Shown here: one piece after another, positions 7,701 to 52,993 of the stretch
Position numbering within the stretch: the first letter of the stretch is position 1
Layout: each line of letters opens with the position of its first letter
Origin: Naegleria gruberi
Lineage: Eukaryota
Length of the DNA stretch: 64,000 nt
Strand: one strand, 5' to 3'
Assembly (NCBI GenBank): GCA_000004985.1
Contig: GG738923.1
The notes under the pieces: generated by a model
What the model was told of the DNA's origin: nothing
Databases searched by the model: none
The model's input: only the letters and a program-made list of their open reading frames with translations
Made by a program: the position numbers and the translations under genes

Positions 7701-8292
7701 TGTTGAAAAGTATTTAATCATGTATTGGTATGAAAGATCAATTGAAAGTGATGGAAAGATTCTCAATACTGTTGCAGAAAATATTGGATTTTGCTTTATT
7801 CTTTCACCATTCTACATTATTGTCCTAATGCCAGTTCTACTGAGTAGAAAAATGACCTATTTGTTGGGTATTCCAATAGTAATTCTAATTATTATTGAGC
7901 TTTACTTTTTGATTAGAAAAACAGCTAATAAGGAAAGAGATGCTATCATTATCTCACTCAAGGAACGCTCAGAACAATCACACAAGAAAGAGGACATTGT
8001 TGAAGAATTGGACACCACTCCAACCAATAACACACCAACCAATATTCAAGACGCTTCAGAATATACACGTAAAAATATTGAGGAGGATCATGATTTTATC
8101 AAATTGGAACAAAATGATTGGTTTGAGCATTCACTCCAAGATAAAAGATATCCACCAACCTTTGATAAATTACACGAAATTCTCAACACTGAGGAAACGA
8201 GAATTTTTGAAGAAGATTTGAATTTGGATGTGAACAAATTGTCGAGACAGTATCGCCATCCTTATTTGAGAAAGTTACTGAGGTTTCAGTAG
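4799..8292 (+). CDS. Multi-pass membrane protein of the OSCA/TMEM63/CSC1-like cation channel type (three N-terminal TM helices, a cytosolic domain, then a 7-TM block). Two exons: 4799..5363 and 5492..8292, with a 128-nt intron 5364..5491 (GTAAGT...CTGTAG).
   Basis: Exon 1 (MAQVLIHTSWPSNRLFFFCVLMITIIYLA..., signal/TM plus a Cys-rich segment) ends in phase 1 at the donor GTAAGT. The acceptor at 5490-5491 joins in frame to DLSIKNSIYG.... The downstream 948-aa frame has many TM helices and a TVMISNVDKT...RELRAMFGDNSIVDCHICFDY segment resembling the OSCA cytosolic region. The family call is pattern-based only. Confidence 0.55.
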
Positions 8293-9425: not shown

Positions 9426-9777
9426 ATCTTGTGCATTTAGCACCTTATCAAATCCAAAAATCATTTTTTAATTAAATTATAAAAAATATCAAAATAACGA
9501 ATCCTTCATCATACTTTGATCATCATAATTATGAAAATAATTAGTACCAACAAGTGTATAGAATGTGAATGTTCAATCTCATCCTGCAACAAAATACATT
9601 GTAAACAACTCGATGGAAGGACACACTTGTTTGTGCTCCAAACAAAAATTTTCGTCCAGTATTAATAGATTGATGGTTGCTGCTGTATAAAAGGGACCAT
9701 AAACTCTCCATCAAAACAATAATCAAAGAAAAGCAATAACAATAATCAGTGTAAAGTTGTAGTACATTCAGTTGAAA

Positions 9778-12700
9778 ATGGGCAAGAGAAAAGCAAGTAG
9801 TAGTATTGGCAATAATGCAAAGACGGTCAAACTTTCTCAAGTAGTACCATCATCATTGCCTGTTCAAAATAGTTCCAATGACAAGGAGATTGTCTACCCT
9901 GCTAGTTTTAATTCTACTTCAGAATTAATGAAAAAGGTCAAGGTACTCTTTACTTCCAATCGTGACGAATGTGAGAAGGAATTATCAATTCTCAAAGAAA
10001 TTAAGGGAATGTTGGATAATGTCAAGGTGTCCTACTTTAAAAATATTACTAAAGGACATCCAATGAAATTAGCTGAAGAAAATCTTAATTCATGCATTGA
10101 CAAGATTAATCAAGTAATTGGTGTTGATGTTACTTTTGTTGGTAGTTCTGGTTTAGGTAAGAGTAGTCTTATCAATATGATTATTGGAGAACCAATTCTT
10201 CCTTGTGGTGATGACATTGGTCACATTACAAGATCAATCTTGGAATTATCTTATGCTAAGAACTATGAAGTAATAGTACAATATTGTAATGAGGAGGAAT
10301 TCAATAAGAGAAGAGCCCTAGCTCCAAAAGAGTTTGCTTCCATTACCTATGAAGAAAAGAAAGATTCTCATGAGACAGTAAATAGTGTCGGGGATATTAG
10401 AGAATTTCTTGATAAACAATTTAGGGAGATGAAAGACCTGGATTTGATCAAAGTTGACAAAATTCTAGGTAAATTACCTGTACAATTGTTACAAGACTTT
10501 AATTTAACTATTCGTGATACTCCAGGATATAAATCTGGTACATTTAGTAGAATTTATCAACATTTCATTGAAAAATCAATTACAAAGACTAATATGATTT
10601 TATTTTTCAGTGAAGGATGTAGGGGAGATGTTTCTACAAGTATATTTAGTGATTTTATTAATCCTATTTTAATGAAAGCTCACAAGAATCCACCATCAGT
10701 TAAAATGCTTATTGGAGGAAGAAATATCAGTGATGAAAAGGTTATGCAATTTAAAAAACTCAAAGAAAAAGTTTCACCAAACAAGATTGATTTTGCTAAA
10801 TTATTATCCATGTATACTGATATGGATCTTGAAGATGTAATTCAAAAGTTGGAACCATTTACTGTAGATTTACCAGTAAATGCTCAATTACCTACACTCC
10901 CTGTTGGTGAAGAGTTTAATATTAAGAACTTGAGAGAAGTTTGCATTTCAATTATTAATAGATTTAATACTCTTATTGTTCCTCATTTGGAATCAAATGA
11001 ATTTGAATCTCAAAAACAAGATTTTCTTGAAAATTTCATGCATGGGCTTGTTGAAGAACAAGGTAGAATCTTACATTCAGAGAGAAAGAATATTATTGAA
11101 ATTACTTGTGCACTTGTACCATTATTAATGTCAATTTGTGTTAATAACTTTTCAGAAAAGCAAACTCAATATTATTTAAGAAAGATTGAAAATGATTTAT
11201 GTGCCTATATGTATGATATTACTCAAAAATTCTCTGATATTGCTATTGAAGAATATAATAATGATTGTGCTATTGAATCTTATGATTTATATATGGATAA
11301 ATTAAGAAAGTCAATTTCCAAAAGACTTAAAGATACTATATCATTTCAAGGATTTAAGAAAATTGCTTTAAATGCCATTTCTGAAGTATCAGAAAATTAT
11401 CCATCAATCACTCTATCCCATAATAGAAAAACCCTTTTACTTTCTAATATTGAACAAGTTTTAACTAGTTGCAAACGAAATATTACAACAGTTTGCAAGC
11501 AATTGTATGAAAATTTGACTAGTAATCCAATTTTTAGAAAAGAGTTCCAAAAGAACACACATTTGAAACAACACACAAATATTAAGAATGAAATCAAGAC
11601 TAATATGATAGTACTGACTAATTTTTTCAATTCTTTATTTGATAAAAATAATAATGCTAAAGTTAATTTAATAGTTGAAACAAAATTCAAACTTACCGAA
11701 TTATTTGAACATTACAAACATGAAAGTCAAGATGATGAATATATCTATTCTATTAATTCAAACTTACCAATTCCATCAAAAGAATCTATTAATCATACAT
11801 TCAAACTCACTCTTCCAACTGAACCACTTAAATATTGGACAAATCATGATGAAAAAGAACCATGGAATCATCTCTCAAACTGTTTAGCTACTAATGACTC
11901 ATTATTGAAAGAGAAAATATTGAGAAATCCAAGTAAGATGAACAGAGAATTAATAGTTGATTTCAATGGTACTAGAATTGACTTTTCAAATCAAAACAAG
12001 ATTCAATTATATAATCTACCAGTGATTCATAATTTGAGTAAATTCCAAACATTATTTACTGGTAATGACGAATTTATTGCACCAATAATGATATTTGCCA
12101 AAGATGAAATCAAACAAAACTTGATTTGCAACACCCTTTCAAAGAATATCAATTCAGATAATTTTTTGGTATTTATATTTTGCCAAGAATCAAATTGGAG
12201 TTCTATTTCTAAACTCGTTAAAGATAATTCATCCTGTTATGTTATTAAGGTTAAGAGTAAGAAATTTAATAAGGGAATATTTGAAACATCAGCTTTAGAA
12301 ATTTCAAAGCATTACAATTTCCCTATTTATCATACAATGACACAATATACAGGAAGAGTTCAAGAATATGTCAGTGATCTCAAATCGTTCAAAACAGCTT
12401 CATTTACATTCATAAGATATTTACGTTTTTCTCAAATAACCATGAAGAAAGAACTATTAGAAATTGATGTAACAAACTTGAAGAAAAATATTGGACAATT
12501 CTTGGCTAGAGTGAGAATATTTATAACTAAACTCACAAGTAATGATTATCAGTGTTTTTTCGATGATACTTTTGAAACTTCTAACTTGATGAACAATAAT
12601 TCAGATTCAGAATCTTTCATGTTGAAATTGAGAGAATTAGATGAAGCAACTGGTACTTCCTTTGCTGAAGACTTTCTCAAAATTAGATTAGCCACAAATA

Positions 12701-13005
12701 AGGCACGTTTAGTGCTTTGGAATGGATCCTCCAATATGGTTAAAGAGTTTAAAGTATTCAATGTCAAGAAAAATAATTATTTCATTAGTTATAGACATGA
12801 TTTAAATTCTATCAATACTTGTTATACTCCATCAATGGTTAATGCTTTGGATGATCAAAAACTTTTTGATTGTGCTTGTTTAGAAGAATATTGTGAACAA
12901 AGTTTGAAGAGTGGATTATTATTTTCAGGAGCTGGTCAATTCATTTGTTATGGATTTAAATTTGAAAAGTTTAATGATGACGATTATGAAAGTGAAAATG
13001 AATAA
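9778..13005 (+). CDS. Large orphan P-loop GTPase (~1075 aa). The N-terminal septin/AIG1/IRG-like TRAFAC G domain is followed by a ~750-aa extension of unknown function.
   Basis: Single uninterrupted ORF. The track start at 9772 is TTG; the first ATG is 9778. G1 is VTFVGSSGLGKSSLINMIIG (cf. septin GESGLGKSTLINSLF, AIG1 GKTGSGKSATGNSILG). G3 is LTIRDTPGY (DTPG). The C-terminal 750 aa have no recognisable domain and are very AT-rich. Confidence 0.7.
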   Translation: MGKRKASSSIGNNAKTVKLSQVVPSSLPVQNSSNDKEIVYPASFNSTSELMKKVKVLFTSNRDECEKELSILKEIKGMLDNVKVSYFKNITKGHPMKLAEENLNSCIDKINQVIGVDVTFVGSSGLGKSSLINMIIGEPILPCGDDIGHITRSILELSYAKNYEVIVQYCNEEEFNKRRALAPKEFASITYEEKKDSHETVNSVGDIREFLDKQFREMKDLDLIKVDKILGKLPVQLLQDFNLTIRDTPGYKSGTFSRIYQHFIEKSITKTNMILFFSEGCRGDVSTSIFSDFINPILMKAHKNPPSVKMLIGGRNISDEKVMQFKKLKEKVSPNKIDFAKLLSMYTDMDLEDVIQKLEPFTVDLPVNAQLPTLPVGEEFNIKNLREVCISIINRFNTLIVPHLESNEFESQKQDFLENFMHGLVEEQGRILHSERKNIIEITCALVPLLMSICVNNFSEKQTQYYLRKIENDLCAYMYDITQKFSDIAIEEYNNDCAIESYDLYMDKLRKSISKRLKDTISFQGFKKIALNAISEVSENYPSITLSHNRKTLLLSNIEQVLTSCKRNITTVCKQLYENLTSNPIFRKEFQKNTHLKQHTNIKNEIKTNMIVLTNFFNSLFDKNNNAKVNLIVETKFKLTELFEHYKHESQDDEYIYSINSNLPIPSKESINHTFKLTLPTEPLKYWTNHDEKEPWNHLSNCLATNDSLLKEKILRNPSKMNRELIVDFNGTRIDFSNQNKIQLYNLPVIHNLSKFQTLFTGNDEFIAPIMIFAKDEIKQNLICNTLSKNINSDNFLVFIFCQESNWSSISKLVKDNSSCYVIKVKSKKFNKGIFETSALEISKHYNFPIYHTMTQYTGRVQEYVSDLKSFKTASFTFIRYLRFSQITMKKELLEIDVTNLKKNIGQFLARVRIFITKLTSNDYQCFFDDTFETSNLMNNNSDSESFMLKLRELDEATGTSFAEDFLKIRLATNKARLVLWNGSSNMVKEFKVFNVKKNNYFISYRHDLNSINTCYTPSMVNALDDQKLFDCACLEEYCEQSLKSGLLFSGAGQFICYGFKFEKFNDDDYESENE

Positions 13006-27934: not shown

Positions 27935-29656
27935 ATGGAAACTAAACAAACTAATGTTGCAAATTCGGAAACAAATTGTTTGACCTCATCAAATAGTAAA
28001 TCGAACAATTCATTGACTAGATGCGTTAGCAATATTTTACATAAGGGTTTTAGTAAGAAGAGAAGTGAGTCAGAGCAAGGATCAAATTCTTGTATACGAA
28101 AGGATGGACGAAACTCCAAGTCCTTAATGCAATCAGAATACAAATGCACAACAACAGCTCCTGCATTCTCATCAAAAGGAGCGCCAGCGTCCACTCTCAC
28201 CATTGCAACTCCTCAAAAGATTCCTTCACCTTCACTAGACGAAACCAATGATAACAATTTCTTCCACTCCCAACACAATTGTACCAAGAGGAGAAGAAAC
28301 ACAGTCTTCTTTCCCTCAACTCCAAGTATTGATGGTGTGAAAACTCCAACTTCTCCAAGTGGCTTGTTTCACTACTCGAGGCGATTGAGTGTTGATCATG
28401 CAACAATGGGAAACATTTTAGGAAGAATTATGTTTGTTGAGGAGAGACAAGTCATGTTTCTTAATTTCGAGAATTTAAAGATTGAATCGATCAAACATTT
28501 GGAGAATATTGCTGCATGTATTCGAATGTTGGTAAAAACTTCGATGGAGTCAAAGAGGAAAGATGGTCAATTTGATGGAAAGATTAAATGTTTTTTGAAT
28601 GATGACGATTTAGATTGTGATTCACATTTGTTTGATACCTATACACAAACAGTTCATATGAACCCTCTATTCGAAACTGTCACTCGATACACCAATAAGA
28701 GTTTATTTTCAGATCATCAGAGAAAAATCCAAAAATCCCTCAGAGATTGTGAAGTCTATGTAAAGACATGTCCATGCATTCTGGATCGTTATGTTTTCAT
28801 GGTCGATGATCAGATTGGTAAGGGAACTTATGGAACAGTTTCACTTGCAATGGATTTGAGTTTGGGAAGAAAGGTAGCTGTCAAGAGATTATGTAAGAAA
28901 ACTGTCAAACTCATTGGTATTGAAGAGTATGTGCAAAATGAAATGGAAATTATGAAACTCTTGAGGGATAATCCACATGAAAATATTGTCCAGGTATTAG
29001 ATATTCATGAAAGCGAGGCAGAATATCTATTTGTAATGGAGTACTTGTCAGGTGGTTGTCTGGATAATCCCTTCGATGAATTTGAAATCATTCCAGAAAG
29101 TCAAGCACAATTATACTTTTGTCAACTGGTGGATGCTGTTGATCATTTGCATTCAAAGTTAAAAGTTTTGCATCGAGATATACAGCCATCTAATTGTTGC
29201 TTTCTAGATACTGAAAAGAAATGGTTAAAATTGGTTGACTTTGGTTTGAGTTGTCAACCAACAGATTTCACTAAGAAGGAACATACATTATTTTGTGGAA
29301 ATAGTAATTATGCATGTCCTGAACTGTTACTAAAGAAGGCATATGGATCTGAAGTTGATGTCTATGCACTAGGAGTCCTTCTCTATAAGATACTGTTTGG
29401 TTGTTTCCCATTTCGTGGAGCTCAACAGAAATTGCTCATGCACTTTACAGTTCCACTGAAGGATGATGTAAATGGAGATGATGCAATGGGAAGTGATGAT
29501 TGTGGTCAGAATATTTCGAAATGTTGTAAAGATTTGTTGCATAATATTTTGGAAGTCAATTGTGAAAAGAGATTTTCCATACAAGATATCAAGAATCATC
29601 AATGGTACAAGATTGGAAAAACTCAGAAGGTGGATTTACTAGAAAGTCACGAATAA
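27935..29656 (+). CDS. Ser/Thr protein kinase (CAMK-like) with a ~280-aa Ser-rich N-terminal extension; single exon.
   Basis: Kinase subdomains: GKGTYGTVSLAMD...VAVKRL (ATP site), VLHRDIQPSN (a catalytic-loop variant of HRDLKPEN), DFGLS, the APE-like CPELLLKK, and a DVYALGVLLY motif. Confidence 0.75.
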   Translation: METKQTNVANSETNCLTSSNSKSNNSLTRCVSNILHKGFSKKRSESEQGSNSCIRKDGRNSKSLMQSEYKCTTTAPAFSSKGAPASTLTIATPQKIPSPSLDETNDNNFFHSQHNCTKRRRNTVFFPSTPSIDGVKTPTSPSGLFHYSRRLSVDHATMGNILGRIMFVEERQVMFLNFENLKIESIKHLENIAACIRMLVKTSMESKRKDGQFDGKIKCFLNDDDLDCDSHLFDTYTQTVHMNPLFETVTRYTNKSLFSDHQRKIQKSLRDCEVYVKTCPCILDRYVFMVDDQIGKGTYGTVSLAMDLSLGRKVAVKRLCKKTVKLIGIEEYVQNEMEIMKLLRDNPHENIVQVLDIHESEAEYLFVMEYLSGGCLDNPFDEFEIIPESQAQLYFCQLVDAVDHLHSKLKVLHRDIQPSNCCFLDTEKKWLKLVDFGLSCQPTDFTKKEHTLFCGNSNYACPELLLKKAYGSEVDVYALGVLLYKILFGCFPFRGAQQKLLMHFTVPLKDDVNGDDAMGSDDCGQNISKCCKDLLHNILEVNCEKRFSIQDIKNHQWYKIGKTQKVDLLESHE

Positions 29657-34016: not shown

Positions 34017-36545
34017 ATGGGAACGAATAGAGTTGTGCCTAATAATCATCATCATAATGAAGAACCAGCACTTCAATCTAAAATGTCTTCAAAACCAAAT
34101 CAACAACAACAAGAAACAGAGAGTTTTGATATAAAGAAGAGAGATGATTTGGATTCAGTGGATGGATCCATCAGTGAACCCTTAGTAGCAAAAAAGCGAA
34201 ATCCAATATTGGGTTGCTTACTTTCAATCCGTTTGTTCTTAATTCTGGTCATTACAGGTCTGATTCTGTTAACTGTCTTTTCAATTTGGATAACTGCTTT
34301 TGAAATGAATCAAGTTGCTTCAATTGATAACTCGAAAACTACAATGAAAATCATGTATGAAAAAGTGTCGAATTTCCTCATGTCTCAATTATTGCCTGCA
34401 AAGAGTATGGCAGATACAGTTGCTCAAGATTATCACATGTTTACGATAACACCTGGTTTCTTAGCAATGAAGAATTATCTATTCACGAAAATGATTAACT
34501 TTCCAATAACAGGTGCCAATTTATGTTTTGGAGAAAATAATATGAGTGTCATTCATGCTTACAATTTGAATCAGTTTCCAACTGAGCAGTTATTCTTTGC
34601 TTGGCAAGATACAGCTGCAAACAGATTTTGCATGTACAGCGTTAATCACACAGATGCAAACATAATGACCATTGCAAGGAATATTACCTATGTGGTCGCT
34701 AAAACAGATTGGTATATGGCTTCTGTGGAAATGCTCAAAACTAATCCAAATGGTGGTTATGGTCCCGTCTATAAAGTGTTGAATGGTGGATTGGCCATGT
34801 ATTGGAGTTCGCCCGTATATGATAGAGAATTACTGAAAGCAAATATCAAGCAAAGAGTTGGTATTGTAAAGATCAACTTGAATTTGCTCAAGATTTCACA
34901 GTACCTTCTTTCAACCAAGTTGCTTAATACTGGTTTCCTGGTGGTTACTGAACTGGGTCCTGATGCCTACGTCATGGGTGCTTCTTTCTCAATTAAAAAT
35001 CTGGATTCTGAGAGAATTCCAGTTAGAAATGTTCAAGAAAGAGGTATTGGAAGCTTGATGAAAGCATTCTTGGATATGAAAGTAGAAGAAGGAAATGTTG
35101 TTACAGTTGACAAGTATTTGGTTTCTTCGTATCAATTCTCATATGCAAATATTGTTTGGCAAATTACAATGTTTGTAGAAGAAACAGAAGTTAAGGCAAG
35201 TGCCATTCTTAGTAGTTACGTTATTCTTGGTGTTACATTATTCTTTGCCATTTTTGGTGTTGTTTTAAGTATCGTTATTGGTACAGTCGTTACAAAACCA
35301 TTTAAGAATCTTGAAAGTGATTTCCAGAAAATTGAAATCATGGACCTTATGAGCATTGAGCAGCATAGATCATTATTTACTGAAGTTAGCAATATTTATG
35401 GAAGTTTAACAGAAACTGTTGGTCAATTGAAAGAATTTAGAGCGTTCCTTCCAGAATCAGTTTTGAACCAATTCGAATATTTGAAGAATGATAACAATAA
35501 TCTTGCAAATAAGGATTCTTCTAAGAATGCTGGGAATCCAAACGAATTGAGTAATGGATTCAGTTTTAGAGAAGGAGATGCAAAGCCATCGTTTACAACC
35601 ATGTCTGAAAATGGACATAACGGAAGTGGCCACTCAAAGTTTTCTGAACACAGAGGAAAGGCAAATTCAAGCATGTTCAAATTAGGACTTTCTTACAAGG
35701 ATTTGTGTATTGTTTATGTGAAAATTCCAGGATTAGATGATAGGCACTATTCAAATTATCATGAATTGTCTCATGTTGTTTGTAGATTGATTTCAGGAGT
35801 ATCGTCTATTTGTAAATCCATGAAAGCAGATTTAGAAATCAAGTCCCATGATGAATTTATGATTAAGATTGATAGATTTAGTTCTTCTTGTGCTGATATT
35901 GCCCTCAAGATTAGTACTGCTTTAACCTCAAATAATGAAACTTTCAAGAGGGATGGTCAACCTTCTATTAAGGTTCATATTGGTGTTGCTTCTGGTAACA
36001 TGTTGAGTGGTAATGTTGGTAACAAGACACTTAGATACAGTGCCCATATTGGTTCAGTTATAGATAGAGCCATTCATTTGTGTAATTTGAATGCATTTAT
36101 TGGAACCAGTGTTCTTATTGATGAAGAAACTCATTATTTGTGTGGTGCTCAATTTGTTGACAGACCTGTTGACAGATATGCCAACCCAAAGAATGGAGAA
36201 AAGAATGTAGAGAATGTTTATGAATTATTGAGAAATAGTAGTGTTGAAAACGATGAATGGATGTATGAATTGCAGCAAAAGAAGGAGAATGAAAAGTTCA
36301 GCCATTACAATGAACACTTTAAAAAGATTTTCTCTAGTACTTGTGTTGGAGATGATGTAACTCAAGCAGTTGCCTATTTTGCAGAGATGAGAAACCACAA
36401 TCCAAGAGACCTGGTACTGCCAAAGTTGGAAAGATTTATAAGAACAGCTATGGAAGACTCTGATGAATTTGACTTTTCTGGATATCACTCAAGAACTTCA
36501 ACAGAATTATTCCACTATATGAATCAAAATAAACTAAAGTATTAA
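34017..36545 (+). CDS. Receptor-type class III nucleotidyl cyclase-like protein (842 aa). Layout: N-terminal TM helix, ~300-aa extracellular sensor-like domain, second TM helix, cytoplasmic cyclase-homology domain; no kinase-homology domain.
   Basis: Hydrophobic helices at ILGCLLSIRLFLILVITGLILLTVFSIWITAF and AILSSYVILGVTLFFAIFGVVLSIVIGTVV. C-terminal cyclase-homology motifs: FMIKIDRF (IKTIGDAYM-like) and VHIGVASGNMLSGNVGNKTLRYSAHIGSVIDRAIHLCN (GxHxGxVxxGxxGxxRxxYxxxGxxVNxAxR). The first metal-binding motif is degenerate: LCIVYVKIPGLDD instead of F(S/T)DIVGFT. Confidence 0.65.
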   Translation: MGTNRVVPNNHHHNEEPALQSKMSSKPNQQQQETESFDIKKRDDLDSVDGSISEPLVAKKRNPILGCLLSIRLFLILVITGLILLTVFSIWITAFEMNQVASIDNSKTTMKIMYEKVSNFLMSQLLPAKSMADTVAQDYHMFTITPGFLAMKNYLFTKMINFPITGANLCFGENNMSVIHAYNLNQFPTEQLFFAWQDTAANRFCMYSVNHTDANIMTIARNITYVVAKTDWYMASVEMLKTNPNGGYGPVYKVLNGGLAMYWSSPVYDRELLKANIKQRVGIVKINLNLLKISQYLLSTKLLNTGFLVVTELGPDAYVMGASFSIKNLDSERIPVRNVQERGIGSLMKAFLDMKVEEGNVVTVDKYLVSSYQFSYANIVWQITMFVEETEVKASAILSSYVILGVTLFFAIFGVVLSIVIGTVVTKPFKNLESDFQKIEIMDLMSIEQHRSLFTEVSNIYGSLTETVGQLKEFRAFLPESVLNQFEYLKNDNNNLANKDSSKNAGNPNELSNGFSFREGDAKPSFTTMSENGHNGSGHSKFSEHRGKANSSMFKLGLSYKDLCIVYVKIPGLDDRHYSNYHELSHVVCRLISGVSSICKSMKADLEIKSHDEFMIKIDRFSSSCADIALKISTALTSNNETFKRDGQPSIKVHIGVASGNMLSGNVGNKTLRYSAHIGSVIDRAIHLCNLNAFIGTSVLIDEETHYLCGAQFVDRPVDRYANPKNGEKNVENVYELLRNSSVENDEWMYELQQKKENEKFSHYNEHFKKIFSSTCVGDDVTQAVAYFAEMRNHNPRDLVLPKLERFIRTAMEDSDEFDFSGYHSRTSTELFHYMNQNKLKY

Positions 36546-36719: not shown

Positions 36720-37565
36720 TTACTGTTTCAAAAAGTTTGTTCTAAATCTGTTAAAATTTCTGTTAGCTATGGAGCTTCTAGGATGTGAGGGTCCTAACTT
36801 TTCATTTAGAATTGAAATTCCCTTATTATACATATCATGAGCTGCAGGAAAATCTCCCACACATTGAAGACAGGCTGCAACGTTTATCATTGAAACTGCT
36901 GTATCAACACCTTCACCCAAATAGGTCTGTCTAATTTCCAGAGATTTTGTATAGTATTTTTGAGCTAGTAAGAACTGTCCTACATGATAGAACACACTTC
37001 CAATGCAACTTAATGGAATTGATGAATCACTGTCATTCATTGCTTGAGCAAACTTTTTGGCTTCCATAAATTCTGAAAGAGCCAACTCATCATTACCCAA
37101 ACTTTGATAAACTAATCCAATTGCACATCTGAAAAATACCAATTCTCTTGGTGTTAGATAATCCTTTTGTCCATTCTCAATCATTTCTTCCTCAACTTCT
37201 TTTTCCATTTCCTTTTTTCTTTCTAACTGTTCGTGCAAATCCCAATTTTTAGTCGACTCAAGAAAGTCATCCATTCTGGAATCCAAAATTTCCTTCTTCC
37301 TTTTTGCATACATGTATTCCAACCAAATATTTTGAGCTCTAATATATACATCGATGGCTTGTTGATATAAACTTGAATTATGATAATTCAAAGCAACTTC
37401 AATTAATTTTGTAACATCCTCGTTCGGACAGTAAGGTGCTAACAAAACCTCCCTAATCAAACACGGAATATCCTGCTCCTGTGGTTCATACCTCTGTCTA
37501 TATGAATAGGAATGGAGAGATGATCTTAATCCTCCTGCAGAAGTGGGTGATGTGGTTTGCATCAT
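36720..37565 (-). CDS. TPR-repeat protein (281 aa as an unspliced ORF). A 42-nt intron (36682..36723, GTAAGT overlapping the stop) may add a Lys-rich terminal exon 36543..36681.
   Basis: TPR-like helical repeats (AIGLVYQSLGNDELALSEFMEAKKFAQ; AQKYYTKSLEIRQTYLGEGVDTAVSMINVAACLQCVGDFPAAHDMYNKGISILNEKLGPSHP). The ORF stop TAA is embedded in caGTAAGTtg. With the acceptor ...ttaagcag, the frame continues HSSFDTVAATPYTPVEIPIFNKSMKPKTAKKTTKTKKGTKKKK* and ends at the cyclase gene's stop. Confidence 0.55.
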   Translation of the reverse strand: MMQTTSPTSAGGLRSSLHSYSYRQRYEPQEQDIPCLIREVLLAPYCPNEDVTKLIEVALNYHNSSLYQQAIDVYIRAQNIWLEYMYAKRKKEILDSRMDDFLESTKNWDLHEQLERKKEMEKEVEEEMIENGQKDYLTPRELVFFRCAIGLVYQSLGNDELALSEFMEAKKFAQAMNDSDSSIPLSCIGSVFYHVGQFLLAQKYYTKSLEIRQTYLGEGVDTAVSMINVAACLQCVGDFPAAHDMYNKGISILNEKLGPSHPRSSIANRNFNRFRTNFLKQ

Positions 37566-37625: not shown

Positions 37626-40550
37626 TTACCATTCTTCTTCGGTCATTTCAATGCCAGTACTATCTTCTGCTTCTTTGTGTTGGGAATCAGATGGTTGTGG
37701 TTCATTGTTTGTCTGGTGATTGGTTTCGTCTTCTTCATCAGTTGGTACATCATCTTCAGGGTCTGCAGCTAGATTGTTATTAATGACCTCCTGTTTGAGA
37801 TTATGGGATATCAGTGGTAGGGATGGTGGTTGTTCTTCTACAGGTTCATCATCGTCATCATCTATAATCTCTGGATCTTCTTGAGTGTTCGATGGAGGTG
37901 GTTTATATTGAGGTCGTTTAGGTCTATTGTTCGAAACAACTGTATCGTCTGTGATGTCGATCGATGATGATGCTCCATTACTGCTACGATGGTGAGCTAC
38001 CTGTGGAGGGAATGGTTGTCTGTGGTAGTGTTGAGGTTGAGGATGGTAATGACCATTTGGAGAAATATTTTCATGCTGTTGTAAAAAGGTATGATTAGGT
38101 TGGAAAGAAAAGCCAGGTTGTTGATGTGGATGTGGGTGTGGAATTTGATTGTGTTGTGAGTGATAAGGTAAGGGTTGATTGTGTTGTGGATGAGGCATTT
38201 GTACATTATTAGGTTGTTGATGATTGTGGAATACCTGTTGTTGAGGGTGATTTATAATGTAAGCCTCAGGAACTCCCAATAAATGGGGTGGTATTGGGAA
38301 AATTGGTTGAGCTGAAGCTGAAGAGGAAGGTGCATGTCTTTTCTTTAACTTGGGATTCCTGGCAGGTGAACTCAAATCCACAACTTGTTGTTGCTGGTCT
38401 TGTAGTTTCTGCTCGTGTCTCTTCACATAATTGGTAATAGTGTGATTTTGTTGAATGAAAGCATCCTCTTCATAATTGAATGTTTCATTAATGTCGTCAC
38501 TTTCAATATTGTACAACATATCGTGCCAAGTGATTCCATCAATTTCCGAATAAGCTTCCAATTGTTTTACATGGTTTCCTAGTTCCTCATAAATTTCACC
38601 TTTTGGATGCAACTCAGCCAATAATTTCTTAGTCTCAGATGATTGCTTGTCTCTTAAAGTCAAAACTTCCAATAATTCCTGATCTGAAGTGAAGTATCTG
38701 TACTGATTCTCTTTTGTGAGTGTATTCTTAATTAACCCGTCTTTGATAACTTGTCTTCTATAAACTACTTCTTCCAAGGTTCCTACTGTAATAAGTCTGT
38801 ATGTAACAACGTTTTTGGTTTGGCCAACTCTATAAGCTCTATCTACAGCTTGTTGATCTACAGCAGGATTCCAATGTGGATCTATCAATATGACTCTATC
38901 AGCTGCAGTCAAAGTCAAACCAACACCTCCACTACCAGTTGTCAGCAAAAAGCAAGAATACATATTGTTTTTTTGAAACAAGTCTACTCTGGCTTGTCTT
39001 TCTTTTGCTGCTACACCTCCATCAATTCTCAAGGTTTTCAACTTTAAGTGTTCTGTAATTATTCTCTCTACAATGTCCAACATTGTTTTGTATTGGGAGA
39101 ATATCAAGGTTCTGTGCCCTGTCTTCTTGTGTTCCTTCAATAGTTTAACAATTATTTGAAGCTTTGAGCTTTCTTCAATTAATTCCTTGCAGGTCATTCC
39201 AGATGTATCTAAATAATCTTTGTCATCTCCTTCTGATATAAAATTCTCAAAGGCTTCATCTTCATTAACATCCTTATTTAAAATTTGTGCTGACCCATTA
39301 TTAAGTCTTGGATGATTGCACAACATTTTCAATGTACTTAGAGCAGAGAAGATACATGATCTGTTTGATTTCTTTCCTAAAATTTGTTTAACAATTTCGG
39401 ATTTGAGATATTGGGTATAAACACGGTCCTGTGTCTTGCTGAGGTAACACCACAATACAAGTTCATTCTTTTGGGATATTTTAGCTTTACCAGTGCTCTG
39501 CTTTTTAAGAATTGTTCCTAATCCTACATTGTGATCACTTTCTAAAACCTGATTTTTGTGTCTTCTCAAGATGTATGGCTGAATTAAAGATCTCATTTGT
39601 TGGGAGAGTTTGTTTCCTAGTACCTTTTCAGTATTTGAGGCATCCCTTTTACGAGATTTTACAATTGACCTCTCAAAATTTGTTTTAAATTCTTTCTTGT
39701 CTCCTAAAATATTGTCTCCATAAAAAACATAATCATAAATAGACCACATTTCCATAAGCTTGATAAATATGAATGATAAATATACAATGTTATAATATTA
39801 ATATGAATGTAAATATAAATTGTTAAATATTAATAAAAATAAAGGATAAATACCTTATTCATAATAGGAGTTCCAGTTAGACAAAACTTGGCTCTAGAAC
39901 CAATCTTTCTCAAATTTTTAGAAATTCCAGTTTGGTCATTTTTGATTTGATGCGCTTCGTCAACAATTGTGATATCAAATTCTTGCTTTGCACATAGTGA
40001 AGCAAGAGTAACCGTATATGTGACCAGAGTTCTGAATGTGGTAATTATGGCAGCTGACTTTTGTTGTTTAGCACATCCATGAAAATCTCTTGCCATACTG
40101 TTGTACTGTTCTTTGGATGATAAATTATGGAATACAAAGGTTTTGATATTTGGTGCCCATTTATCTAGCTCGCTAGCCCAAGTTTGAAGCACTGATAATG
40201 GAGCAATAATTAAATAACGTCTTGTTTTGCTTTGAGCCAAACCTCCTAGAAAGGCTGAAACTTGAACAGTTTTGCCCAATCCCATTTCACTTAAAGTTGA
40301 AATTAAATATATTAGAGACCCTTAATAATACTTACTCTGCTAATATTCCACCTCTGTACTTGTCGGCATTGAATCTTGTATTGAGCCACTTGATTCCTTC
40401 TTTTTGGAATGAATATAGTTTCGTGTAAACATCTCTGTCTAGAATGAGACCTCCATCCAAGTAATAGTCGTCGTCTGCGTCCTTTTTCCAACCATTTCCA
40501 ACATCTATAAGCTCAGCCATGTTTGTAGTTTTTTGGGCTCGCTTCTTCAT
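37626..40550 (-). CDS. SNF2-family DNA-dependent ATPase/helicase (ERCC6/RAD26/ERCC6L-like) with a long Q/H/P-rich acidic C-terminal tail. Three exons: 40336..40550, 39854..40289, 37626..39758; introns of 46 and 95 nt.
   Basis: Exon 1 encodes MKKRAQKTTNMAELIDV...LYSFQKEGIKWL...GGILA. Exon 2 encodes DEMGLGKTVQVSAFLG...IVDEAHQIKN...LTGTPIMNK (motifs I, II, III). Exon 3 encodes LMEMWSIYDYVFYG...LRRHKNQVL...SGGVGLTLTAADRVILIDPHWNPAVDQQAVDRAYRVGQTKNVVTYRLIT (helicase motifs IV-VI). Donors are GTAAGT and GTATTT and the phases are consistent. Upstream, 40583..41472 encodes an acidic Ser/Lys-rich region in two other frames. Confidence 0.8.
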
Positions 40551-50442: not shown

Positions 50443-50563
50443 TTTAATTAGACGGTAGCTACCAAATCCAATAACATGAAATATCAAAAGGATTCGGTAG
50501 CCATACCTATTAGACAGATGACTTGATCAACACTTTTCCAGTTTCGAATAAAAAGTGAAAAAA

Positions 50564-52993
50564 ATGTCATACTTTTCCTCTCGTTCCAATGTATTGAGTG
50601 GAAGTGAAGATCTTTCTCTCTTGAGTTCCCGTCAAGTCCCTTCAAAAGAAGAATCCGATTCTGACCATTTAGTTGATTTGAAACATTCTCTCAAGGATTT
50701 ATCTTCTTTTGCATTATACGAAAGGATTGAACAACAACATTTAAAGCATTCTGATTTGTTTAAATTATATTGTCAGAGTATTGCTCCAAATTCGATACCT
50801 CCTTTAACTGTTTCTAACACTAGTAATTCATCATCATCAACAACACCATTACTTGTTCACTCTCGTTCCGAGAATAGTTTACTTTCGAATTCTTCATCCA
50901 ACAATGTATACAAATCACTATTAGAAATGGTAAACTCCAATGATATTCTCTTTTCCATTGTTATTTGGATTGCCACTCAAATCCCACTCAGTCAAAGATA
51001 TTCGAAAAGTTTAAAAAAGAATTTTGACAAAGTTTTCACATGCAAGACTTTTATTTCTCTCTTAACTTCACAACTTCACAAACAACAAATGCTCTACTTT
51101 CCAAGTATAAACTATGCTGGAATTAAGAGTCATATGGATATTGTTGAGAAAATCAATTCACTCTACAAGATATTTAATCCATCGAATCAACTGCAGCAAC
51201 AATCAGTACTTTCGTATAATGATGAATCATTCTCTTTTAAACAAGCTTGGTCAAAGGTTCAGGCTGAAACTTTTGGTCAATTTCTATTAGAAATTGGAAT
51301 TATTCAAAATATTAAGCCAGAGAAGAAGAGAAAATTTGCAGAGAGGTCTCACTATTACATGTTTAGTATAGAAACCATCTTGTACTATGCTGAATTGTTT
51401 TTTGAAGATAAGGTTTCAAGTCAACAACAACAAAATGTTCTCAATCAATTCAGAAATCCAAGTTTTAATGATAGTGGCTTTACTGCATTTTCACAAAATG
51501 TAAATTCTCCATTCTTGTCCAATATTTCAGCTGCCTCAATGCATTTGGTTTCAATTGGACAAAATTTACAAAAGAGTTCCTTATTGAATTTGATTGTTTC
51601 TCAGGAGAGAGAATTTGAAATGATTCAGGGTCATATTAAGAAAACTCATGAAGAAATTGCTCAAGAGTCTAATTCTAGTGGCTCATCATTGGATGTTACT
51701 TCTCCGAGAAGTGGAGAATCACCATCACAACTCAGTGATGCCACAAGTAGTGCATTCTCATTGGTATTTAGACAGGACCATCAACGATCCAAATCGAGAG
51801 ATTTTGCCAGAACTGCACCAAAAGTTAATCACCACAGAATGAGCACCAATTTAAGTTTAAATACTGATCAGATTTGGAATCAACCAAAAGATTTGGAACT
51901 CAAAGAGGTCATTAGAGGAAAGAATCAACACTTATTCGAAACTCCAACCTTGTCACCTCGTTCTAGATTTTACGAAGAAAATGGAATCAAGGCCAAGATT
52001 CAATCCGTTCAACAAGCTCTCAATAATCCAACTATCAATGAGGAATTCACACAATATTGCACCAAGGATCATTCAGAGGAAAATATTCTTTTCTGGAAGG
52101 AAATTCAATCCTATAAAAGGATCCAATCTCCAAGTGAAAGAAAGCTAAAATTCAAAGAATTGGTTTCTCAATTTGTGTCAAGCAATTCTCCACATTCTAC
52201 TCCAGTCAATTTAGAATCAAAGATTGTAACAAGCTTTTTAACACTTGCTGAGGAAAATGAGGAAAATATTTCATTCTTTTCCACTGAAGTTTTCAATGAA
52301 TTGGAATGGTTGGTCGTCAATAATTTGAAAGACACCTTTACAAGATTCAACGATGAAAGAAATAAGGAAATAGATTCTCAAATTGATGAATTACAACAAA
52401 ATCTCAGACTTGAAGCAATCAAGAAGGAGCAACACTCAAAGAGTTTCCTCTCCCAAGTAGCCAGTGCCATTGGTCGTAAGAAGACAAACAGTACATCAAC
52501 AAATAATGCACACAACAATCTCATAATACCACCTCCAAAGCTACAAGTTGCAGTTGAGGAAAACAAGAAGGAAATGGAAAGAGTACCAGCGCATGAGTAT
52601 TGCACTCTTGAGGCTGTTCTTTGCAGTCCCAATGCCAGAAAACAATTTAGAATATTCTGTAAGAAGGAGCATGCTGAGGAGTACATTTTGTTCTTGGATT
52701 CCGTTGATGAGTACAAGACATTTACAGGAAAACTCGACAGATGCAAGAAGGCACACGAAATTTTCAATATATTTATTGAGCTACCAACTTCTGGATCATT
52801 CCTACATGAAGAGGATGTTCGTACTCTCGACTGTACAAAAGATGAAAGAGAAACCATACGTAAAAAGTTAGATAGTGGTGAATTGGAAATGTTTGATGCT
52901 GTAGTAATCAGTATTCAAAATCAAATGTTGGATGTTTACAATCGTTTTGCAACAGCTCAAATGGAATGGAAAGCAAAGAAAATGCTAATGTAA
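50564..52993 (+). CDS. Regulator of G-protein signalling protein with two tandem RGS domains (~810 aa, single exon).
   Basis: First ATG at 50564; the track start at 50555 is GTG. RGS domain 1: FTQYCTKDHSEENILFWKEIQSYKRIQSPSERKLKFKELVSQFVSSNSPHS...VNL. RGS domain 2: FRIFCKKEHAEEYILFLDSVDEYKTF...AHEIFNIFIELPTSGSF...DVYNRF. The N-terminal half is low complexity. Confidence 0.7.
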   Translation: MSYFSSRSNVLSGSEDLSLLSSRQVPSKEESDSDHLVDLKHSLKDLSSFALYERIEQQHLKHSDLFKLYCQSIAPNSIPPLTVSNTSNSSSSTTPLLVHSRSENSLLSNSSSNNVYKSLLEMVNSNDILFSIVIWIATQIPLSQRYSKSLKKNFDKVFTCKTFISLLTSQLHKQQMLYFPSINYAGIKSHMDIVEKINSLYKIFNPSNQLQQQSVLSYNDESFSFKQAWSKVQAETFGQFLLEIGIIQNIKPEKKRKFAERSHYYMFSIETILYYAELFFEDKVSSQQQQNVLNQFRNPSFNDSGFTAFSQNVNSPFLSNISAASMHLVSIGQNLQKSSLLNLIVSQEREFEMIQGHIKKTHEEIAQESNSSGSSLDVTSPRSGESPSQLSDATSSAFSLVFRQDHQRSKSRDFARTAPKVNHHRMSTNLSLNTDQIWNQPKDLELKEVIRGKNQHLFETPTLSPRSRFYEENGIKAKIQSVQQALNNPTINEEFTQYCTKDHSEENILFWKEIQSYKRIQSPSERKLKFKELVSQFVSSNSPHSTPVNLESKIVTSFLTLAEENEENISFFSTEVFNELEWLVVNNLKDTFTRFNDERNKEIDSQIDELQQNLRLEAIKKEQHSKSFLSQVASAIGRKKTNSTSTNNAHNNLIIPPPKLQVAVEENKKEMERVPAHEYCTLEAVLCSPNARKQFRIFCKKEHAEEYILFLDSVDEYKTFTGKLDRCKKAHEIFNIFIELPTSGSFLHEEDVRTLDCTKDERETIRKKLDSGELEMFDAVVISIQNQMLDVYNRFATAQMEWKAKKMLM

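What the first reader, a model, noticed from the sequence alone, without database searches (positions are those of the whole stretch)
34017..36545. Receptor-type cyclase-like protein lacking a kinase-homology domain and with a degenerate metal-binding motif (possible pseudo-cyclase or sensor)
The domain order is TM, large extracellular domain, TM, then a cyclase-homology domain. It resembles protist and fungal receptor adenylyl cyclases rather than metazoan receptor guanylyl cyclases, which carry a kinase-homology domain. The second-half motifs (IKIDRF; GxASGNMLSGNVGxxxxRYSAHIGSVIDRAIHLCN) are well preserved. Where class III cyclases have FSDIVGFT with the first metal-binding Asp, this protein has YVKIPGLDD. 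That suggests either altered catalysis or a regulatory, non-enzymatic partner that would need a second subunit.
Basis: partly seen in the sequence, partly recalled or inferred. Interest (0 to 1): 0.55.

Follow-up and report, generated by a model that had tools for sequence, protein, structure and literature searches.

The report
Dead-cyclase membrane receptor of Naegleria
This Naegleria gruberi gene encodes a membrane receptor built like a bacterial ligand-sensing adenylate cyclase, but its cyclase domain has lost five of the six catalytic residues; it belongs to a large, undescribed family of such "dead" cyclase receptors that share a new, almost invariant DEWMYEL motif.

Summary
Nt 34017-36545 (+) is one intact 842-codon ORF of Naegleria gruberi. 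Its order is TM1, ~300-aa ectodomain, TM2, cyclase-homology domain (CHD), with no kinase-homology domain and Lys at the first metal-binding Asp.

Tools add four points.
- The ectodomain is a double-Cache (dCache) sensor.
- TM2 is followed by a HAMP domain and a cyclase-transducer element (CTE).
- The CHD keeps the class III fold (TM 0.74-0.77 to solved cyclases) but only 1 of 6 catalytic residues: K569, I608, D612, A676, D683, H687 against D, K, D, T/D, N, R. It can supply neither half of a class III active site, so a partner subunit cannot rescue catalysis.
- It belongs to a large family. Among the 150 best 50%-identity representatives, 129 are degenerate (Naegleria, Willaertia, Acrasis, one prokinetoplastid transcriptome).

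The family is collinear with canonical dCache-HAMP class IIIb cyclases (hhalign E 7e-72). It differs by the lost catalytic residues, a ~50-aa disordered insert between CTE and CHD, and a DEW[ML]YE[LM] motif after the CHD (81/129 degenerate, 0/18 canonical).

Best reading: a ligand-gated receptor pseudo-cyclase with a non-enzymatic output. The output step is inferred. This is a new variant of a known kind, of moderate interest.

The parts
34017..36545 (+). Complete uninterrupted ORF: 842 aa plus stop. Naegleria gruberi receptor pseudo-cyclase.
   Evidence: ORF listing. 100% identical to N. gruberi 'predicted protein' P0001 over 90% of its length. Homologues align from M1 to the C-terminus of the unspliced ORF. 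The chance of an ORF this long is about 1e-28.
34017..34196 (+). Residues 1-60: disordered, poorly conserved cytosolic N-terminus.
   Evidence: pLDDT below 50. Mean pairwise identity in the family is 0.20. In some relatives ankyrin repeats take this position.
34212..34301 (+). Residues ~66-95: transmembrane helix 1.
   Evidence: Hydropathy maximum 2.7. It forms a helix continuous with the long N-terminal dCache helix in the model.
34302..35204 (+). Residues ~96-396: extracellular double-Cache (dCache_1-like) sensor domain.
   Evidence: Foldseek matches to dCache ligand-binding domains (Mlp24, PctC, TlpA, HK1S-Z; target TM-score up to 0.70). The ectodomain profile hits solved dCache domains: 6mni E 1.1e-8, Mlp24 7e-7, PctA 2.8e-4. 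Pfam dCache_1 is found in relatives. pLDDT is 85-97. The RxWY motif of canonical relatives reads T230-D231-W232-Y233 here.
35205..35297 (+). Residues ~397-427: transmembrane helix 2.
   Evidence: Hydropathy maximum 2.8. Helix 389-440 in the model.
35286..35429 (+). Residues 424-471: HAMP domain.
   Evidence: hhalign of this segment against canonical relatives gives prob 96.3%, E 1.7e-9. Residues 424-471 align to P0174 residues 377-424, which lie within that protein's Pfam HAMP hit at 373-424. Pro428 and Glu456 are conserved. Pfam and PDB sequence searches on the segment alone were not significant (Af1503 HAMP in register, E about 1).
35430..35486 (+). Residues 472-490: cyclase-transducer element (KEFRAFLPESVLNQFEYL).
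   Evidence: Aligns to EQLLLNILPAEIAERLMRT of the canonical cyclase P0174. EFRAFLP is invariant among the nearest homologues. Together with HAMP it is the most conserved domain-level segment (pairwise identity 0.42). The AC9 helical domain plus C1a match starts here.
35490..35675 (+). Residues 492-553: disordered Asn/Ser/Gly-rich linker inserted between the CTE and the cyclase core.
   Evidence: pLDDT below 50. It is unaligned in the hhalign comparison with canonical cyclases. The distance from the CTE Pro to beta1 is 89 aa here, median 78 in degenerate relatives and median 28 in canonical ones. Pairwise identity is 0.13.
35676..36251 (+). Residues 554-745: class III cyclase-homology domain, catalytically degenerate.
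   Evidence: Pfam Guanylate_cyc scores 21.8 bits against a cut-off of 21.9 for this protein alone. The family profile hits CyaB 3r5g at E 1.7e-11 over the whole domain. Foldseek target TM-scores are 0.70-0.77 with rmsd about 3 A to CyaB, Cya2, CyaC, Rv1625c and sGC.
35721..35723 (+). K569: position of the first metal-binding Asp (D to K).
   Evidence: Alignment to CyaB. Among 120 degenerate relatives this position is R in 26 and K in 24, and D in only 7.
35838..35852 (+). I608-K609-S610-H611-D612. I608 is at the purine-specifying Lys position. D612 is the retained second metal-binding Asp.
   Evidence: IDKFVGD of CyaB aligns with EIKSHDE. K609 is one residue out of register.
36042..36077 (+). 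A676 (specificity Thr/Asp position), D683 (transition-state Asn position) and H687 (transition-state Arg position).
   Evidence: DYTIIGREVNLASRLE of CyaB aligns with YSAHIGSVIDRAIHLC.
36252..36272 (+). Residues 746-752: DEWMYEL, the signature motif of the degenerate family, at the start of the helix that follows the CHD.
   Evidence: Present in 81 of 129 degenerate representatives and 0 of 18 canonical ones. Pairwise identity is 0.74, against 0.29 for the CHD. It is a gap in the canonical profile. D746 and W748 are nearly invariant. Helix 748-771 in the model.
36273..36542 (+). Residues 753-842: helical (TPR-like) C-terminal tail inherited from the canonical cyclases.
   Evidence: Three helices, pLDDT 75-91. 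The hhalign alignment with canonical relatives extends into it. Similar tails are seen in Legionella P0128 and in P0058/P0064. There is a weak TPR_21 hit in relative P0063.
36296..36369 (+). 74-nt GT..AG stretch removed as an intron in the public gene model. It is probably coding.
   Evidence: The P0001 tail maps to another frame from nt 36371 and stops after nt 36460, at the TGA at 36461-36463. The unspliced reading matches the tails of the homologues.

Best explanation
The gene encodes a type of membrane receptor with these parts in order: cytosolic N-terminus, TM1, extracellular dCache ligand-binding domain, TM2, HAMP, cyclase-transducer element, disordered linker, class III cyclase-homology domain, DEWMYEL helix, helical tail.

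It descends from bacterial-type dCache-HAMP-class IIIb adenylate cyclases, which still exist in catalytically canonical form in heteroloboseans. Its own cyclase domain keeps the fold but has lost five of six catalytic residues. It therefore most likely makes no cAMP or cGMP, either alone or with a partner.

Proposed mechanism:
- A small ligand binds the dCache domain.
- TM2, HAMP and CTE, the best conserved domain-level segments, transmit the change to the dimeric dead cyclase domain.
- That domain acts as a conformational switch rather than an enzyme.
- The output is read by other proteins, probably through the family-specific, almost invariant DEWMYEL helix and the tail.

Shown here: the anatomy, the homology, the loss of catalytic residues, family membership and the pattern of conservation. 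Inferred: lack of activity, dimeric signalling and a protein-interaction output.
For: Anatomy and homology:
- dCache by fold and by profile.
- HAMP and CTE by profile-profile alignment.
- CHD by profile (E 1.7e-11) and by fold (target TM-score 0.74-0.77).
- Whole-length collinearity with canonical cyclases (E 7e-72).

Catalytic hexad:
- It reads K-I-D-A-D-H against D-K-D-T-N-R.
- Of 120 degenerate relatives, 112 keep two or fewer canonical residues, and the substitutions differ from protein to protein. These positions are therefore no longer under selection.

The protein is nevertheless constrained:
- The ORF is intact.
- The model is confident (mean pLDDT 80).
- The CHD is more conserved than the linker or the ectodomain (pairwise identity 0.29 against 0.13 and 0.25). 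HAMP and CTE reach 0.40-0.42 and DEWMYEL 0.74.

Derived family characters:
- The DEW motif and the linker insertion track the degenerate state.
- All DEW-bearing sequences form one clade of 113 tips with no canonical member in a rough neighbour-joining tree.
- The same HAMP-CTE-dead CHD-DEW module is joined to other N-terminal parts: EGF repeats and ankyrin repeats. That is how an output module behaves.
Against: - No activity or binding data exist.
- D612, the second metal ligand, is retained, and the fold is intact. Unusual catalysis is therefore not formally excluded.
- The roughly 60-aa disordered insert between CTE and CHD could uncouple sensor from output, which would weaken the relay model.
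- DEWMYEL sits in a confidently predicted helix. It may be a purely structural cap of the tail rather than a docking site. I could not inspect model coordinates.
- The tree is a neighbour-joining tree without bootstrap, and fast-evolving sequences can group artificially.
- Expression and the true 3' splice form are unverified.
Confidence: 0.6

Rival explanations
1. It is still a nucleotide cyclase. Either it uses non-canonical residues, or the invariant acidic pair D746/E747 replaces the lost metal ligand, or it works as one half of a heterodimer.
For: The fold is fully retained. D612 is retained. An invariant Asp-Glu pair lies next to the domain. A few distant family members keep one complete half-site, for example DSDASE and DGDAGD with both metal Asp. 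Heterodimeric arrangements may therefore exist somewhere in the wider family.
Against: This protein lacks both half-sites: K569 on one side, and I608, A676, D683 and H687 on the other. The four N. gruberi members identified (KIDADH, RINTYN, QVFTVK, QIKSSK) also lack them. The replaced positions vary freely among relatives, which is not what a re-wired active site would show. The phosphate-binding loop after beta1 is not conserved either.
Confidence: 0.1
2. It is a regulatory or dominant-negative partner. It heterodimerises through TM, HAMP, CTE and CHD with a catalytically competent dCache-HAMP cyclase and silences or tunes it.
For: Canonical enzymes with the same architecture exist in related eukaryotes: Willaertia P0098, and P0064 on a eukaryotic contig. 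One Cache-containing bacterial-type cyclase has been reported in Naegleria (PMC4822843). The dimerising segments HAMP and CTE are the best conserved. By class III geometry, a dead subunit would inactivate both sites of a heterodimer.
Against: Degenerate members far outnumber canonical ones: 129 against 18 among the best 150 representatives. The family-specific linker and DEWMYEL motif are not needed for simple poisoning. No canonical N. gruberi partner was recovered here. None lies in the window.
Confidence: 0.15
3. The dead cyclase domain is a nucleotide-binding sensor. It would bind ATP, GTP or a cyclic nucleotide without turnover, as some degenerate GGDEF domains do, and so add a metabolic input to the extracellular one.
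For: The fold and part of the pocket scaffold are kept: the glycine-rich hairpin GxxxxGNxG and D612. There are precedents in other degenerate nucleotidyl cyclase folds (own knowledge).
Against: The purine-specifying and phosphate- or metal-binding positions are neither canonical nor conserved within the family.
Confidence: 0.1
4. It is a decaying gene, a young pseudogene of a cyclase with no function.
For: The Pfam score is just under the family cut-off (21.8 against 21.9). Catalytic residues are lost. The public annotation needed an odd intron.
Against: The 842-codon ORF is intact in a 33% GC genome (P about 1e-28). The same degenerate architecture is conserved across Naegleria, Willaertia and Acrasis, with dozens of paralogues. 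The model is confident. The new DEWMYEL motif is strongly conserved.
Confidence: 0.03

Closest known systems
Bacterial-type dCache-HAMP-class IIIb adenylate cyclases. Examples: Legionella spiritensis WP_232001726 (P0128), Microcoleus vaginatus P0174, Willaertia magna KAL9647366 (P0098), and M. tuberculosis Rv2435c, cited as a dCache cyclase in PMC4822843.
   Same: Same order of parts and homologous throughout: TM1, dCache, TM2, HAMP, CTE, CHD, helical tail (hhalign E 7e-72 over 673 columns). Presumably the same dimeric transmembrane relay.
   Different: The canonical proteins carry D-K-D-T/S-N-R and RxWY in the sensor. They have about 28 aa between the CTE Pro and beta1 and no DEWMYEL. The window protein has K-I-D-A-D-H, TDWY, an 89-aa spacing with a disordered insert, and DEWMYEL.
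P. aeruginosa CyaB catalytic domain (PDB 3r5g) and other solved class III domains (Cya2 2w01, CyaC 1wc1, Rv1625c 4p2f).
   Same: Same fold: target TM-score 0.74-0.77, rmsd about 3 A, about 200 aligned columns. CyaB is the best sequence match in the PDB.
   Different: 15-18% identity. All catalytic residues except the second Asp are replaced.
Dictyostelium ACG and trypanosomatid receptor-type adenylate cyclases
   Same: Single-domain receptor topology: ectodomain, one TM before the CHD, no kinase-homology domain (own knowledge of those families).
   Different: Those proteins are active enzymes with CHASE-type or periplasmic-binding-protein-like ectodomains. Here the ectodomain is dCache and is followed by HAMP and CTE, and the CHD is degenerate. 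They did not appear among the nearest relatives examined.
Metazoan receptor guanylyl cyclases (e.g. NPR-A, GC-C).
   Same: Ligand-binding ectodomain, a single TM before the cytosolic part, and a helical dimerisation/CTE segment before the CHD.
   Different: No kinase-homology domain. No ANF-receptor ectodomain. PDB matches to NPR1 and GC-C are weak (E 0.06-1). The CHD is inactive.
Degenerate sites and subunits of heterodimeric class III cyclases (mammalian tmAC C1/C2 forskolin site, sGC alpha/beta), and other signalling pseudoenzymes (receptor pseudokinases, degenerate GGDEF domains).
   Same: A catalytic fold is kept for regulation or scaffolding after catalytic residues are lost (own knowledge).
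   Different: In tmAC and sGC each subunit still supplies one complete half-site. Here both half-sites are lost from a homodimer-type domain. The loss also characterises a whole receptor family with its own added motif.

Membership tests
Class III nucleotidyl cyclase (CHD, Pfam PF00211) | Sequence homology to the CHD profile | tested here: met
   The single sequence is borderline: 21.8 bits against a cut-off of 21.9, E 1.6e-4. The family profile hits CyaB at E 1.7e-11 over the full domain, and 30 other cyclase chains at E<0.01.
Class III nucleotidyl cyclase (CHD, Pfam PF00211) | Beta-alpha-beta-beta-alpha-beta cyclase fold | tested here: met
   Foldseek target TM-scores 0.70-0.77, rmsd 2.9-3.9 A to many solved CHDs. 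Domain pLDDT is 84-95.
Class III nucleotidyl cyclase (as an enzyme) | Two metal-binding Asp (beta1 FxDIxGFT; beta4 GDxY) | tested here: not met
   K569 replaces the first. D612 is retained. No offset Asp is conserved.
Class III nucleotidyl cyclase (as an enzyme) | Substrate-specifying pair (Lys or Glu; Asp, Thr or Cys) | tested here: not met
   I608 and A676. K609 is one residue out of register.
Class III nucleotidyl cyclase (as an enzyme) | Transition-state Asn and Arg (GDxVNxASRxE) | tested here: not met
   D683 and H687 in GSVIDRAIHL. These positions vary freely among relatives.
Class III nucleotidyl cyclase (as an enzyme) | cAMP or cGMP synthesis | not testable with these tools
   Needs an enzyme assay or cya complementation.
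dCache_1 extracellular sensors | Long N-terminal helix plus two PAS-like modules between two TM helices | tested here: met
   Model helix 71-140 followed by two alpha/beta modules. Foldseek matches to Mlp24, PctC, TlpA and HK1S-Z. Profile matches to solved dCache domains at E 1e-8 to 3e-4. Pfam dCache_1 is found in relatives but not in this sequence alone.
dCache_1 extracellular sensors | Distal-module RxWY ligand-pocket motif, and the amino-acid-sensor variant with its Asp (the latter recalled from the literature) | tested here: not met
   Canonical relatives have TRAWY, TRDWY or TRPWY. This protein has KTDWY and its clade has TD(Y/W)Y. The ligand class is therefore unknown.
HAMP domain | About 50-aa helix-connector-helix directly after TM2, homologous to PF00672 | tested here: met
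   hhalign prob 96.3%, E 1.7e-9 onto the Pfam-defined HAMP of P0174. Direct Pfam and PDB sequence searches were inconclusive.
Cyclase-transducer element | [quoted passage not shown] | tested here: inconclusive
   The sequence element is present and aligned (KEFRAFLPESVL to LLLNILPAEIAE). It is not immediately N-terminal, because a disordered insert of about 60 aa separates it from beta1.
Metazoan receptor guanylyl cyclase | Kinase-homology domain between the TM helix and the CHD; ANF-receptor ectodomain | tested here: not met
   No Pkinase or ANF_receptor hit at E<=10.
Heterolobosean 'DEW' degenerate-cyclase family (defined here) | Degenerate hexad, long CTE-to-CHD linker, and DEW[ML]YE[LM] after the CHD | tested here: met
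   KIDADH, 89-aa spacing, DEWMYEL at residues 746-752. The protein groups with the 113-tip DEW clade.

The most novel reading that the evidence does not exclude
The dead cyclase domain together with the invariant DEWMYEL helix is a new, cyclic-nucleotide-independent signalling output. It would be used by a large family of discoban (heterolobosean, possibly kinetoplastid-related) surface receptors with interchangeable sensors: dCache, EGF repeats and others. Ligand binding would switch the pseudo-cyclase dimer and expose or hide the DEWMYEL helix to recruit a still unknown cytosolic effector, much as receptor pseudokinases do.
Probability: 0.3. Interest if true: 0.72.

Novelty: new variant of a known kind. 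Interest (0 to 1): 0.55.

Why it matters
Naegleria is cited for an unusually large set of adenylate/guanylate cyclases ("at least 81" in PMC9928731). Cache sensors were reported in only one Naegleria protein (PMC4822843).

This analysis shows that an unknown number of the cyclase-like receptors are not cyclases at all. They form a large, conserved family of pseudo-enzymes. Several members carry dCache sensors that domain scans miss: two N. gruberi paralogues give no Pfam hit whatever.

That changes how cyclic-nucleotide signalling capacity should be counted in these amoebae, which include the pathogen N. fowleri's genus. It also provides a clean natural example of a bacterial-type sensor enzyme turned into a non-enzymatic receptor. 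The short invariant motif DEWMYEL can be mutated or used as bait to find the new output pathway.

Tried and rejected
K569 is in register with the conserved Gly, and D574/D575 are not conserved.
- Paralogue in the window: none by tblastn.
- Census of N. gruberi paralogues with the word-indexed protein search: it recovered only 6-10 proteins even with a 36-sequence profile. The exhaustive representative search was needed. No full census was obtained.
- Search for a canonical N. gruberi partner with the Willaertia enzyme as query: only bacterial relatives were returned.
- HAMP by Pfam and by PDB sequence search: not significant. Settled by profile-profile alignment.
- Idea that a basic residue at the first metal site pairs with the retained acidic second site as a salt bridge: no association across the family (Fisher p = 0.45).
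- N-glycosylation sequon enrichment in the ectodomain as topology support: none, 1.0 per 100 aa on both sides.
- Amino-acid-sensor reading of the dCache domain: the Arg of RxWY is absent.
- DEWMYEL as a known short motif: no paper contains the string. By my own inspection it does not fit LIR or WxxF patterns, and it lies in a predicted helix.
- Literature search for 'pseudo-cyclase' terms: no hits.
Full report
**The object.** The window is Naegleria gruberi DNA. The ORF at 34017-36545 (+) is 842 aa, and 90% of it is 100% identical to an N. gruberi 'predicted protein' (P0001). At 33% GC, a stop-free run of 842 codons has a chance of about 1e-28.
- YVKIPGLDD at residues 567-575
- IKIDRF at residues 616-621
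- the glycine-rich segment at residues 656-690

Two strong hydrophobic segments (about residues 66-95 and 397-427) enclose a ~300-aa domain. Pfam finds no kinase-like domain even at E<=10. It finds Guanylate_cyc at 21.8 bits, just under the 21.9 cut-off.

**Gene model.** The public model (790 aa) removes nt 36296-36369 as a 74-nt GT..AG intron. That shifts the frame, and the protein then ends just before the TGA stop at 36461-36463. Homologues from N. lovaniensis and environmental assemblies align with the unspliced reading to its end, including conserved tail positions. I therefore treat the uninterrupted 842-aa ORF as the protein.

**Anatomy.** A first AlphaFold model from six sequences was poor (mean pLDDT 55). 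A second model from 36 family members reached mean pLDDT 80.4. Only residues 1-60 and 492-553 fell below 50. The domains are as follows.
- *Ectodomain.* Fold search places it with double-Cache ligand-binding domains of bacterial chemoreceptors and histidine kinases (Mlp24, PctC, TlpA, HK1S-Z; target TM-score up to 0.70). An ectodomain profile hits solved dCache domains by sequence: 6mni at 1.1e-8, Mlp24 at 7e-7, PctA at 2.8e-4.
- *HAMP and CTE.* Pfam and PDB sequence searches did not recognise the segment after TM2. Profile-profile alignment against canonical relatives gives 96.3% probability (E 1.7e-9). Residues 424-471 fall on the Pfam-defined HAMP of a Microcoleus cyclase. KEFRAFLPESVLNQFEYL falls on its LLLNILPAEIAERL cyclase-transducer element.
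- *C-terminal domain.* It superposes on solved class III cyclase domains at target TM-score 0.70-0.77 and about 3 A rmsd (CyaB, Cya2, CyaC, Rv1625c, sGC). The family profile hits CyaB at E 1.7e-11 over the full domain.
- *Tail.* Three helices follow the CHD (residues 748-814).

**Catalytic positions.** In the alignment to CyaB the six canonical positions D-K-D-T-N-R read K569, I608, D612, A676, D683, H687. Only the second metal Asp survives.
- The Lys at 609 is one residue out of register.
- The two Asp residues after the Gly of beta1 are not conserved in homologues, so there is no offset metal ligand.
- A class III site takes the two Asp from one subunit and Lys, Asp/Thr, Asn and Arg from the other (established enzymology). 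This protein can supply neither half. A competent partner would not restore a site.

**The family.** The word-indexed search found only five relatives. The exhaustive profile search found 158 representatives (50%-identity clusters) at E<=1e-30.
- Of the best 150, 129 have a degenerate hexad and 18 are canonical D-K-D-T/S-N-R.
- Of 120 degenerate sequences with complete signatures, 112 keep at most two canonical residues. The replacements differ widely.
- Named members come from N. gruberi (at least four: this gene, NAEGRDRAFT_75884, NAEGRDRAFT_64367, XP_002676245), N. lovaniensis, Willaertia magna and Acrasis kona. One comes from a transcriptome of the prokinetoplastid Apiculatamorpha spiralis, where contamination is possible. 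Others come from metagenomes.
- Canonical relatives with the same architecture come from Willaertia magna, Legionella spiritensis and cyanobacteria. One lies on a 73.6-kb metagenomic contig whose neighbouring genes are eukaryotic (NRDE-2, MOCOS-like, DSPc, RGS).
- The degenerate and canonical groups are collinear over 673 columns (hhalign probability 100%, E 7e-72).

**What is new in the degenerate group.** Three characters travel together.
1. The catalytic residues are lost.
2. A disordered insert lies between the CTE and beta1. The distance from the CTE Pro to beta1 has a median of 28 aa in canonical proteins and 78 in degenerate ones. It is 89 here.
3. A heptapeptide DEW[ML]YE[LM] follows the last CHD strand. 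It occurs in 81 of 129 degenerate and 0 of 18 canonical representatives. It is a gap in the canonical profile.

In a 30-sequence core alignment, mean pairwise identity by segment is as follows:

| Segment | Mean pairwise identity |
|---|---|
| DEWMYEL | 0.74 |
| CTE | 0.42 |
| HAMP | 0.40 |
| CHD | 0.29 |
| dCache | 0.25 |
| Tail | 0.18 |
| Linker | 0.13 |

In a rough neighbour-joining tree, all DEW-bearing sequences fall in one clade of 113 tips that contains no canonical sequence. There is no bootstrap, and long-branch effects are possible. The same HAMP-CTE-dead CHD-DEW module also occurs behind EGF-repeat ectodomains and with N-terminal ankyrin repeats.

**Sensor pocket.** Canonical relatives carry the dCache RxWY motif (TRAWY, TRDWY, TRPWY). 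The degenerate clade has TD(Y/W)Y, and this protein has KTDWY. The ligand is unknown. The carboxylate-binding Arg of amino-acid sensors is absent (that role is recalled from the literature).

**Interpretation.** The best-supported reading is a ligand-sensing receptor whose output domain is a catalytically dead cyclase domain.
- The high conservation of HAMP and CTE, and the constraint on the CHD fold, argue that the sensor still drives a conformational change in a CHD dimer.
- The invariant DEWMYEL helix, a derived character of exactly this group, is the best candidate for what the cell reads. This last step is inference.
- Four rivals are weighed in the Rival explanations section, and none is excluded by experiment: residual or re-wired catalysis, dominant-negative pairing with canonical paralogues, nucleotide sensing without turnover, and gene decay.
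- The first and last rivals are disfavoured by the free variation of the catalytic positions and by the strong conservation of everything else.

**Relation to the literature.** Genome papers count Naegleria cyclases by domain ('at least 81'; PMC9928731). [quoted passage not shown] I found no paper that uses pseudo-cyclase terms or contains the DEWMYEL string. Within the searchable library the family appears undescribed. Two N. gruberi members give no Pfam hit at all. Background on the CTE lying directly against the cyclase core is in PMC5995499. That makes the inserted linker here a real departure.

**Verdict.**
The protein is a pseudo-cyclase and sensor. It is not like protist or fungal receptor cyclases, and a second subunit cannot rescue catalysis.
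- It is a new variant of a known kind: a receptor pseudo-enzyme derived from dCache-HAMP class IIIb cyclases, and a member of a large unannotated family with its own signature motif.
- Interest is 0.55.

Noticed in passing
window 36296-36369: The public N. gruberi gene model splices out a 74-nt GT..AG stretch. The result is a frame-shifted 790-aa protein that ends just before the TGA at 36461-36463. Homologues support the unspliced 842-aa ORF, so the annotated intron is probably wrong.
   Followed up: yes
window 36720-37565 (-) and 37626-39755 (-): Immediately downstream on the other strand lie a TPR_12 repeat protein (281 aa) and an SNF2/Helicase_C ORF. The helicase ORF starts inside the SNF2 domain, which suggests an upstream exon.
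   Followed up: partly
window 5446-8292 (+), 9772-13005 (+), 27935-29656 (+), 50555-52993 (+): Other large ORFs in the window are an RSN1/OSCA-like 10-TM channel, a dynamin-family GTPase, a protein kinase and an RGS-domain protein. None is cyclase-related.
   Followed up: partly
L001 8001-10175 (JGI metagenome 3300062347, 73.6-kb contig): P0064 is a catalytically canonical (DKDTNR) dCache cyclase and, with P0058, one of the two canonical relatives closest to the degenerate family. It lies among eukaryotic genes (NRDE-2, MOCOS-like, DSPc, RGS). The active ancestor type therefore persists in an uncultured, gene-dense eukaryote.
   Followed up: partly
P0128 (Legionella spiritensis WP_232001726): An amoeba-associated bacterium encodes a canonical relative with the same architecture, including the helical tail that ends PPEHWDGV. 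This is compatible with gene transfer between amoebae and their bacteria. The direction of transfer was not tested.
   Followed up: no
P0006, P0020, P0097, P0108 (JGI metagenomes); P0065: The HAMP-CTE-dead CHD-DEW module is also found fused to long N-terminal ankyrin-repeat regions and, in P0065, behind teneurin-like EGF repeats.
   Followed up: partly
P0070 (EukProt, Apiculatamorpha spiralis transcriptome): A degenerate member (NVDTSI, DEWMYQL) is attributed to a prokinetoplastid. If this is not contamination, the family extends beyond Heterolobosea within Discoba.
   Followed up: no
P0103 (DSDASE), P0145 (DGDAGD), P0135 (DADSNN), P0067 (NKDSNG): A few distant relatives keep one nearly complete half-site: either both metal Asp, or Lys/Ser/Asn. 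This hints that true heterodimeric cyclases may exist elsewhere in the wider group.
   Followed up: no
P0008 and P0157 (N. gruberi paralogues): Two N. gruberi family members give no Pfam hit at E<=0.01. Domain-based counts of Naegleria cyclase-like receptors and Cache sensors therefore miss them.
   Followed up: partly
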